Shown here in pieces: positions 1 through 154 of a stretch of 24,340 nucleotides of DNA; position 1 is the first letter of the stretch; every line of letters begins with the position of its first letter. A program made the position numbers and the translations under genes. The notes beneath the pieces were generated by a model that saw only the letters and a program-made list of their open reading frames with translations, was not told the origin of the DNA and did no database searches. Source of the DNA: a virus; UHGV virus genome UHGV-1426191; one strand, 5' to 3'.

Positions 1-100
1 AAATTGCCGCCCACTGTGAGCCATATTCGCCCTGACTTTCCAGAACCATACGAATCGCCCTCTGACGGCCTTCGGGGGAAAAATGAGTATTTTTAGTCAT
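1..100 (-). CDS. IS3-family transposase OrfA, N-terminal fragment (5' partial gene, continues past window start)
   Basis: Minus-strand translation from ATG (complement of 98-100): [33 protein letters not shown]. This closely resembles the N-terminus of IS3-family OrfA (IS629-like [26 protein letters not shown]...). Absent from the ORF track only because fewer than 60 codons lie in the window. Confidence 0.7.
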
Positions 101-154
101 CCTGTTTACCTCTTTCTCAGGGAGTTTAGTCTCCAGGATTCCCGGGGCGGTTCA
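1..154 (-). mobile_element. IS3-family insertion sequence, partial (terminal inverted repeat plus 5' end of orfA; rest lies beyond the window start)
   Basis: Minus strand of 100-154 reads TGAACCGCCCCGGGAATCCTGGAGACTAAACTCCCTGAGAAAGAGGTAAACAGG, followed by ATG at 100-98. The TG-initiated end and the OrfA-like N-terminus resemble IS629/IS3411-type elements. Boundary placed at 154 (ggttca at 149-154). Confidence 0.7.

What the first reader, a model, noticed from the sequence alone, without database searches (positions are those of the whole stretch)
1..154. Truncated IS3-family element abutting the prophage nin region
The minus strand of 1-154 carries a TG-initiated terminal repeat and the first 33 codons of an OrfA-like transposase ([26 protein letters not shown]...). 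The IS ends 30 bp upstream of ninB, where lambda-type phages normally carry ren/P/O-region sequence. An insertion here could have disrupted replication or early genes and made the prophage defective, or could mark a rearrangement point.
Basis: partly seen in the sequence, partly recalled or inferred. Interest (0 to 1): 0.45.

Follow-up and report, generated by a model that had tools for sequence, protein, structure and literature searches.

The report
IS629-type insertion sequence splitting prophage terminator tR2
The first 154 bases of the window are the left end of a common E. coli jumping gene (an IS629-type insertion sequence) that landed in the tR2 transcription terminator between the prophage genes ren and ninB; this is an ordinary event, and the element looks cut short only because the window ends inside it.

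Summary
On the minus strand, window 154-130 is a perfect 25-nt IS3-family left inverted repeat (TGAACCGCCCCGGGAATCCTGGAGA). Codons 1-33 of orfA run from 100 to 2. The 154 nt are 98.1% identical to a 1310-bp IS present in 3549 of 5426 complete E. coli genomes. That element is an IS629/IS1203/IS3411 isoform with 25-nt IRs, an ALIL frameshift pseudoknot and 3-bp target duplications.

The "truncation" is the window edge. The window is probably a whole short-read contig that stops in repeats at both ends. The IS does not replace ren/P/O sequence. Uninterrupted relatives, including lambda itself, have a 73-nt ren-ninB spacer containing the intrinsic terminator tR2. The IS end lies inside the descending arm of the tR2 hairpin, 29 nt before the ninB ATG. 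If this is a simple insertion, no gene is interrupted and only tR2 is split.

Whether ren/P/O lie beyond the IS cannot be read from the window. The junction was absent from every collection searched. Relatives show both outcomes: simple insertions with 3-bp duplications, and IS-bounded deletions. From ninB to the tail fibre the window is 99.7-100% identical to IS-free relatives over the stretches compared.

Verdict: a known element, a routine event, low interest.

The parts
1..154 (-). Left-end fragment of an IS629-group (IS3 family) insertion sequence: IRL, leader and the first 33 codons of orfA. It is cut by the window edge.
   Evidence: 98.1% identical over 154 nt to full-length copies. 95.5% identical to the O157 copy annotated 'IS3-like element IS1203 family'.
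130..154 (-). Left terminal inverted repeat (IRL), TGAACCGCCCCGGGAATCCTGGAGA
   Evidence: Single exact match in the window, 0 expected by chance. Identical to the IRL of L001, whose IRL and IRR pair 23/25.
2..100 (-). orfA codons 1-33 (the N-terminal part of the HTH DNA-binding protein of the transposase). Carries three private non-synonymous changes: R6H, V11G and D27G.
   Evidence: 30/33 identical to L001 OrfA, E = 3e-21. The full OrfA hits Pfam HTH_Tnp_1 at 1.8e-12; the fragment alone reaches only E = 0.16. The private bases are at window 21, 69 and 84.
155..157 (.). GGC, the expected 3-bp target-site duplication if the insertion is simple (inferred; the second copy would lie beyond the window).
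   Evidence: Full copies of this IS group have 3-bp duplications flanking TG...CA: CAT in L001, ACC in L039, GAG in L040, TAC in L042.
155..167 (+). Remnant of the lambda-type intrinsic terminator tR2: the last 5 nt of the descending stem arm (GGCCT) plus the T-run TTTTATTT. The ascending arm and loop are missing.
   Evidence: The intact hairpin AGGCCTGC-TGGTAATC-GCAGGCCT + TTTTATTT is present in lambda, L002 and L015. The same sequence is the 'TR2-cut' oligonucleotide for lambda tR2 in the supplement of PMC4824070.
184..624 (+). ninB, intact. It is the first phage gene after the IS; its ribosome-binding region at 168-183 is retained.
   Evidence: This exact 146-aa protein is found in many lambdoid prophages and carries Pfam NinB. 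Homology to phage DNA resumes at window 153/155.

Best explanation
Window 1-154 is the left end of an IS629-isoform insertion sequence (IS3 family; the IS629/IS1203/IS3411 group). It is inserted in the 73-nt spacer between ren and ninB of a lambdoid E. coli prophage with a myovirus-type tail. The transposase genes point away from ninB, antisense to rightward early transcription.

Shown: the break point lies inside the descending arm of the tR2 intrinsic terminator. Only GGCCT plus the T-run stays on the ninB side.

Inferred: elements of this family move by copy-out-paste-in through a circular intermediate and duplicate 3 bp of target. The most likely state of the genome is therefore a full 1.3-kb element flanked by GGC, with ren, P and O intact on the far side. 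In that case the only thing broken is tR2, whose hairpin is separated from its U-tract. Early rightward transcripts must then cross 1.3 kb of antisense IS to reach ninB-Q. N-modified polymerase is known to do this, so the insertion by itself need not disable the prophage.

The apparent truncation is an assembly or window artefact: the contig stops in a multi-copy repeat.
For: Identity of the element:
- 98.1% identical over 154 nt to copies in 3549 of 5426 complete E. coli genomes.
- Exact 25-nt IRL.
- OrfA 30/33 identical.
- The full-length relative is 1310 bp, carries the ALIL frameshift pseudoknot RF01497 at 116 bits and is about 96% identical to copies annotated IS629 in Stx phages.
- PMC3271280 calls IS1203 and IS3411 IS629 isoforms and places 62% of O157 IS629 copies in prophages.

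Site:
- Alignment with uninterrupted relatives puts the junction at 154/155, with ren ending 73 nt before ninB.
- The hairpin and T-run are called as a terminator in lambda itself, fold as such, and equal the published tR2 oligonucleotide.

Simple insertions of the same IS group, with 3-bp duplications, occur nearby in other genomes. L039 has ACC 3 nt after the ren stop, L040 has GAG just after tR2, and L042 has TAC.

Artefactual truncation: the window's right end equals the end of an independent ENA contig, and the left end lies in a repeat.

Downstream integrity: window 924-16680 and 18813-24340 are identical to an IS-free scaffold.
Against: - The other IS end, the second GGC copy and ren/P/O are outside the window.
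- The junction 30-mer is absent from genome contigs, viral contigs and metagenome contigs. No complete E. coli genome has it. The simple-insertion part is therefore inference by analogy.
- Relatives also show the alternative outcome. In L041 the IS has no duplication and is followed by sitD. In L003 an IS cluster replaces the end of O and the start of P.
- Three private, all non-synonymous, substitutions in 33 codons could mean that this copy is no longer under selection.
- The effects on tR2 and on transcription are predicted, not measured.
Confidence: 0.8

Rival explanations
1. The IS marks a deletion or rearrangement end point. An IS-mediated adjacent deletion, or recombination between two IS copies, removed or displaced ren, P, O and perhaps more. 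The prophage would then be a replication-defective remnant.
For: This happens in relatives. In L041 the same IS type sits in ninB, has no target duplication (GTG on one side, TCT on the other) and is followed by the host gene sitD. In L003 three IS copies or fragments replace the 3' part of O and the 5' part of P. IS629-type elements are associated with deletions in IEE-positive strains (10.1101/2023.06.07.543989).
Against: Nothing in the window requires it. The break is in an intergenic spacer, exactly at the IS terminal CA. Three of the five comparable full copies examined here are simple insertions with 3-bp duplications (L039, L040, L042). The ninB-to-tail-fibre region is 99.7-100% identical to IS-free relatives over the stretches compared.
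Confidence: 0.25
2. Only a decayed solo end of the IS is present in the genome: a true biological truncation, a fossil of an old insertion.
For: Three substitutions in 154 nt are found in no other copy compared. The best match is 98.1% in 5747 E. coli records and 2926 plasmid records. A 29-mer carrying two of the three is absent from three collections. All three change an amino acid. Partial copies of this IS do exist elsewhere (L003).
Against: About three quarters of random substitutions are non-synonymous, so three out of three is not significant. The IRL, the leader, the RBS and the reading frame are all intact up to the window edge. The fragment ends exactly at the window boundary, which is what assembly breaks at repeats produce.
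Confidence: 0.1
3. The junction is an assembly chimera: reads from an IS elsewhere in the genome or metagenome were wrongly joined to the tR2/ninB region.
For: The window is probably a short-read, possibly metagenomic, contig. Closely related phages in other samples have no IS here (L014, L015). The dinucleotide CA at 153-154 is shared by the IS end and the phage sequence.
Against: The switch is exactly at the canonical IS terminus, as in a real insertion. A two-base overlap cannot drive a de Bruijn mis-join. The IS part carries its own private variants rather than a mixture of known alleles.
Confidence: 0.03

Closest known systems
IS629 and its isoforms IS1203 and IS3411 (IS3 family, IS3 group; E. 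coli/Shigella)
   Same: Same 25-nt TG-initiated IRL, same leader and orfA start. 98.1% identical to a widespread 1310-bp E. coli copy with the ALIL frameshift pseudoknot. 95.5% identical to the O157 copy annotated as IS1203 family. Prophage location is typical: 62% of O157 copies are in prophages (PMC3271280).
   Different: Three private base changes (R6H, V11G, D27G in OrfA). Only 154 nt can be seen, so orfB, the frameshift site, the IRR and the target duplication are unverified for this copy. No ISfinder comparison was possible, so the isoform name is not settled.
IS629-group insertions in the ren-ninB-dam segment of other E. coli prophages (strain C7, O103:H2 12009, O157:H7 7636, strain G5, GCA_051334735.1)
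   Same: Same IS group, same orientation, same few hundred bases of the phage map. Three have clean 3-bp duplications.
   Different: Each is at a different nucleotide. None is inside the tR2 stem, and none shares the window's IS allele. They are independent events, not shared ancestry.
Lambda tR2 and the nin5 deletion (N-independence through loss of the terminators between P and Q)
   Same: The target is the same terminator. The sequence AACAGGCCTGCTGGTAATCGCAGGCCTTTTTATTT is conserved between lambda and the uninterrupted relatives.
   Different: nin5 removes tR2 together with the nin genes (from my own knowledge). Here tR2 is split by 1.3 kb of foreign DNA, which may itself be polar. No N-independent phenotype can be claimed.
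IS911 in the nin region of Shigella phage Sf6
   Same: An IS3-family element carried in the nin region of a lambdoid phage record. It is annotated in the Sf6 records that match window 220-3641.
   Different: A different IS (IS911) at a different site. That Sf6 is a functional phage is from my own knowledge, not tested here.

Membership tests
IS3 family insertion sequence (IS629 isoform group) | Terminal inverted repeats beginning 5'-TG and ending CA-3' | tested here: met
   Left IR 154-130, 25/25 identical to the IRL of a full copy whose IRL and IRR pair 23/25. The right IR is outside the window.
IS3 family insertion sequence (IS629 isoform group) | orfA encoding an N-terminal helix-turn-helix protein directly after the IRL | tested here: met
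   33 codons, 30/33 identical to OrfA of L001 (E = 3e-21). That OrfA hits PF01527 HTH_Tnp_1 at 1.8e-12. The fragment alone scores below the cut-off (E = 0.16, 12.6 bits against 24.1).
IS3 family insertion sequence (IS629 isoform group) | orfB in the -1 frame with a programmed frameshift (here stimulated by the ALIL pseudoknot) and a DDE catalytic domain | not testable with these tools
   This lies beyond window position 1. It is present in the full-length relative: ALIL RF01497 at 116 bits at IS positions 336-452, and a joined CDS annotated 'programmed frameshift'.
IS3 family insertion sequence (IS629 isoform group) | 3-bp direct target duplication | not testable with these tools
   Only one flank (GGC, 155-157) is in the window. 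Relatives show 3-bp duplications CAT, ACC, GAG and TAC.
IS3 family insertion sequence (IS629 isoform group) | Nucleotide identity of 95% or more to the named element (ISfinder isoform convention, from my own knowledge) | tested here: inconclusive
   Over the 154 nt available: 98.1% to the L001 type and 95.5% to the copy annotated as IS1203 family. The L001 type is about 96% identical over 1310 bp to copies annotated IS629. No ISfinder reference sequences were available, and only 12% of the element is visible.
Lambda-type intrinsic terminator tR2 (the target site) | G+C-rich 8-bp stem, 8-nt loop and a U-tract between ren and ninB | tested here: not met
   Intact in lambda, L002, L015, L039, L040 and L041. 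In the window only GGCCT + TTTTATTT remains. The scan finds just a weak substitute of 5 pairs (3 G-C) formed with the IS end, at 144-160.

The most novel reading that the evidence does not exclude
The ren-ninB boundary, including the tR2 hairpin, might be a preferred landing or retention zone for IS629-type elements in one orientation (transposase antisense to pR transcription). Splitting tR2 might then alter the N-dependence of late-gene expression in the prophage. The IS would act as a recurrent regulatory switch rather than as neutral damage. The evidence does not exclude this. Seven copies of the group were seen between the end of the replication genes and dam in six genomes, all in the same orientation. 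However, most were found with orientation-specific queries, every site differs, and no expression data exist.
Probability: 0.05. Interest if true: 0.35.

Novelty: already known. Interest (0 to 1): 0.1.

Why it matters
It matters little beyond annotation. It shows that the left edge of this contig is an assembly break at a multi-copy IS, not the end of the prophage. The missing early region (ren, P, O, immunity, int) should be looked for on another contig that ends in the right end of the same IS. The one mildly interesting detail is that the insertion splits tR2, a much-used model intrinsic terminator. If the prophage is inducible, it would be a natural tR2-disrupted lambdoid phage. IS629-type insertions are also useful strain-typing markers, and this junction was not found in any collection searched.

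Tried and rejected
1. Finding the source genome or the same junction.
- The exact 30-mer across 141-170 gave 0 hits in genome contigs, viral contigs and metagenome contigs.
- Megablast of window 1-1200 against 5426 complete E. coli genomes gave no single-piece match across the junction.
- An artificial 'other junction' (ren side + GGC + IRR) found no same-site insertion, only nearby ones.

2. Exact-protein look-ups.
- NinB and Dam are far too common: 1341 and 15588 blocks.
- TerL (40 blocks) and the baseplate J protein (8 contigs) found near-identical phages, but none with this IS junction.
- The 33-aa partial OrfA is not on record.

3. Looking for the private IS allele. A 29-mer with two of the three variants is absent from three collections. 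There is no full-length match above 98.1% in E. coli genomes or plasmids.

4. The idea that L016 is a deletion derivative of the window's configuration. Rejected: its IS is a different allele (7 mismatches, none of the private bases).

5. The idea that O157:H7 carries an IS at the same tR2 site (suggested by H118). Rejected: that insertion has the duplication TAC, in a different sequence after a helicase gene.

6. An outward promoter from the IS end into ninB. No sigma-70-like site was found in 1-400 on either strand.

7. Orientation bias of IS copies in this region. Not claimable, because the queries that found most of them were orientation-specific.

Full report
**What is in the sequence.** Read on the minus strand, window 154-130 is TGAACCGCCCCGGGAATCCTGGAGA. 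A GAGG ribosome-binding site and an ATG at 100-98 follow. The open frame runs to the window edge and gives [33 protein letters not shown]. The 25-mer occurs once in the window, with 0 expected by chance. The only correction is that the spacer to the ninB ATG (184) is 29 nt, not 30.

**What the element is.** The 154 nt match loci annotated 'IS3 family transposase' at 98.1% identity in 5747 records from 3575 of 5426 complete E. coli genomes; 3549 genomes have a match covering at least 80% of the query, and the median is 3 places per genome. They also match 2926 plasmids, mostly Escherichia, with some Shigella, Salmonella and Klebsiella.

I examined one full copy, L001:2501-3810. Its features are:
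- It is 1310 bp long.
- Its 25-nt inverted repeats pair 23/25.
- It is flanked by a 3-bp duplication, CAT.
- It encodes a frameshifted orfA/orfB transposase.
- It contains the ALIL frameshift-stimulating pseudoknot (Rfam RF01497, 116 bits).
- Its OrfA hits Pfam HTH_Tnp_1 at 1.8e-12. The 33-residue fragment in the window is 30/33 identical to it (E = 3e-21) but too short to pass Pfam alone.

This full copy is about 96% identical to copies that depositors annotate as IS629 in Stx phages. The window fragment is 95.5% identical to an O157:H7 copy that RefSeq names 'IS3-like element IS1203 family'. PMC3271280 treats IS1203 and IS3411 as IS629 isoforms. The element therefore belongs to the IS629 isoform group of the IS3 family. 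I could not compare it with ISfinder references, so I do not assign the exact isoform name.

**Three private substitutions.** Bases C21, C69 and T84 (+ strand) differ from every copy compared. No E. coli genome or plasmid record exceeds 98.1% over the full fragment. A 29-mer carrying two of the variants is absent from three large collections. All three change an amino acid (R6H, V11G, D27G). Three out of three non-synonymous changes is not statistically meaningful. It is compatible with a copy drifting without selection, with a rare allele, or with errors at a contig end.

**Where it landed.** Homology to lambdoid prophages resumes at window 153/155. The CA at 153-154 is shared by the IS terminus and the phage sequence.

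In uninterrupted relatives, ren ends 73 nt before the ninB ATG. These relatives are E. coli STEC719 (L002), an ENA contig 99.7% identical to the window (L015), and phage lambda itself (L032). Their spacer contains AGGCCTGC-TGGTAATC-GCAGGCCT followed by TTTTATTT. The terminator scan calls this a terminator in lambda, and it folds as an 8-bp hairpin. The same sequence is the oligonucleotide used to clone 'phage lambda terminator tR2' in the supplement of PMC4824070.

The IS end therefore lies inside the descending arm of the tR2 stem. The window keeps only GGCCT plus the T-run (155-167) and then the intact ninB ribosome-binding region. With the IS end, a much weaker stem (5 pairs, 3 of them G-C) can form in front of the T-run. 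I take tR2 to be destroyed or strongly weakened. This is an inference.

**Is the element truncated, and what lies beyond it?** This cannot be read from the window, and I could not find the source.
- The junction 30-mer is absent from genome contigs, viral contigs and metagenome contigs.
- No complete E. coli genome has the junction.
- The partial OrfA is not on record as a called gene.

The window does look like a complete short-read contig:
- Positions 924-16680 and 18813-24340 are identical to an ENA metagenome scaffold, BRIT16-1 scaffold_783, which has a different ninB region and no IS.
- The window's last base coincides with the last base of an independent ENA contig, inside a tail-fibre gene (L035).
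- The first base lies 154 nt into a multi-copy repeat.

The 'truncation' is therefore best explained as an assembly or window boundary.

**What relatives show.** IS629-group copies are common in this part of the map.

| Genome (locus) | Position of the IS | Flanks |
|---|---|---|
| Strain C7 (L039) | 3 nt after the ren stop, tR2 intact | ACC on both sides |
| Strain C7 (L039), second copy | Inside ninB | Not examined |
| O103:H2 12009 (L040) | Small ORF just after tR2 | GAG on both sides |
| O157:H7 7636 (L042) | After the replicative helicase gene | TAC on both sides |
| GCA_051334735.1 (L016) | Abuts dam at window position ~666, at a contig end | One flank only |
| Strain G5 (L041) | Inside ninB | GTG one side, TCT the other; followed by host gene sitD |
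| O80:H26 EC-107 (L003) | Cluster of one full and two partial copies replacing the end of O and the start of P | Not examined |

The C7, O103 and O157 cases are simple insertions. The G5 and O80:H26 cases are real rearrangements or deletions. Among the copies whose two flanks I could read, simple insertion was the commoner: 3 of 4 in this region, and also L001 elsewhere.

All these copies have the same orientation as the one in the window. However, the queries that found most of them were orientation-specific, so I draw no conclusion about orientation bias.

**Mechanism.** The identity of the IS end and the exact break point in tR2 are shown. The rest is inferred.

IS3-family elements transpose by copy-out-paste-in through a circular intermediate (reviewed in 10.1101/2023.06.07.543989) and duplicate 3 bp here. 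The most likely genome state is …ren–[left part of the tR2 hairpin]GGC–IS(1310 bp, inverted)–GGC CTTTTTATTT–ninB…. No coding sequence is interrupted.

Rightward early transcription must cross the IS antisense to its transposase genes. From established lambda biology (my own knowledge), N-modified polymerase reads through tR2 and suppresses the polarity of IS insertions. An insertion at this point should therefore be tolerated. No outward promoter-like site was found in the IS end. I put the simple-insertion state at about 0.6-0.65, a deletion or rearrangement end point at about 0.25, a true solo remnant at about 0.1, and an assembly chimera at a few per cent.

**Comparison with what is known, and novelty.** This is a known element in its most typical habitat: 62% of O157 IS629 copies lie in prophages (PMC3271280). 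The particular junction and the IS allele were not found elsewhere, but that is expected for IS insertions, which are strain-specific. The only detail a specialist might note is that the target is the stem of tR2, a textbook terminator.

**Verdict.** The feature is ordinary and already known in kind, and interest is low.

Noticed in passing
window 2491-2565 and 2571-2646 (+): Two phage-borne tRNA genes, tRNA-Asn(GTT) and tRNA-Thr(TGT), lie between the Q antiterminator gene (1887-2399) and the lysis genes, as in relative L002.
   Followed up: partly
window 725-923 (inside the dam-like methyltransferase gene, 621-1148): A mosaic switch. The window differs from L015 and L018 at the same nine sites between 725 and 923. 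It differs from scaffold L014 only at 899 and 923 and is identical to it from 924 to 16680. Left of about 657, L014 has a different ninB region. This suggests recombination between lambdoid prophages inside dam, unrelated to the IS.
   Followed up: partly
window 24340 (right end), in the tail-fibre gene starting at 23689: The window ends at exactly the same base as an independent ENA contig (k119_19857, L035). Scaffold L033 continues for another 1.7 kb through the tail fibre and chaperone into a host periplasmic-binding-protein gene. The right edge is therefore an assembly break in a variable or repeated tail-fibre segment.
   Followed up: partly
L039, L040, L041, L042, L016, L003 (other E. 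coli genomes): IS629-group elements recur between the replication genes and dam of lambdoid prophages, at a different nucleotide each time. Four were examined at base level: three with 3-bp duplications (ACC, GAG, TAC) and one without (followed by sitD). All share the window's orientation, but the searches were orientation-specific, so bias is unproven.
   Followed up: partly
window 144-160 (+): The IS terminus and the tR2 remnant together form a weak terminator-like hairpin, GGGGC-GGTTCAG-GCCTT, in front of the original T-run. This could retain a little termination activity.
   Followed up: no
window 15596-15799 and 15818-17803: The tape-measure gene is 661 codons here and in L014 but 668 in L015-L017. 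Identity to those relatives falls from 99.7% to 96.4% after a roughly 200-nt unaligned gap just upstream, which marks another mosaic boundary.
   Followed up: no
window 20120-20485 (-): A 121-codon ORF on the opposite strand lies inside the tail/baseplate module. It is also called as a gene in relatives (L033 1308-1673, no Pfam hit) and could be a moron-type insert.
   Followed up: no
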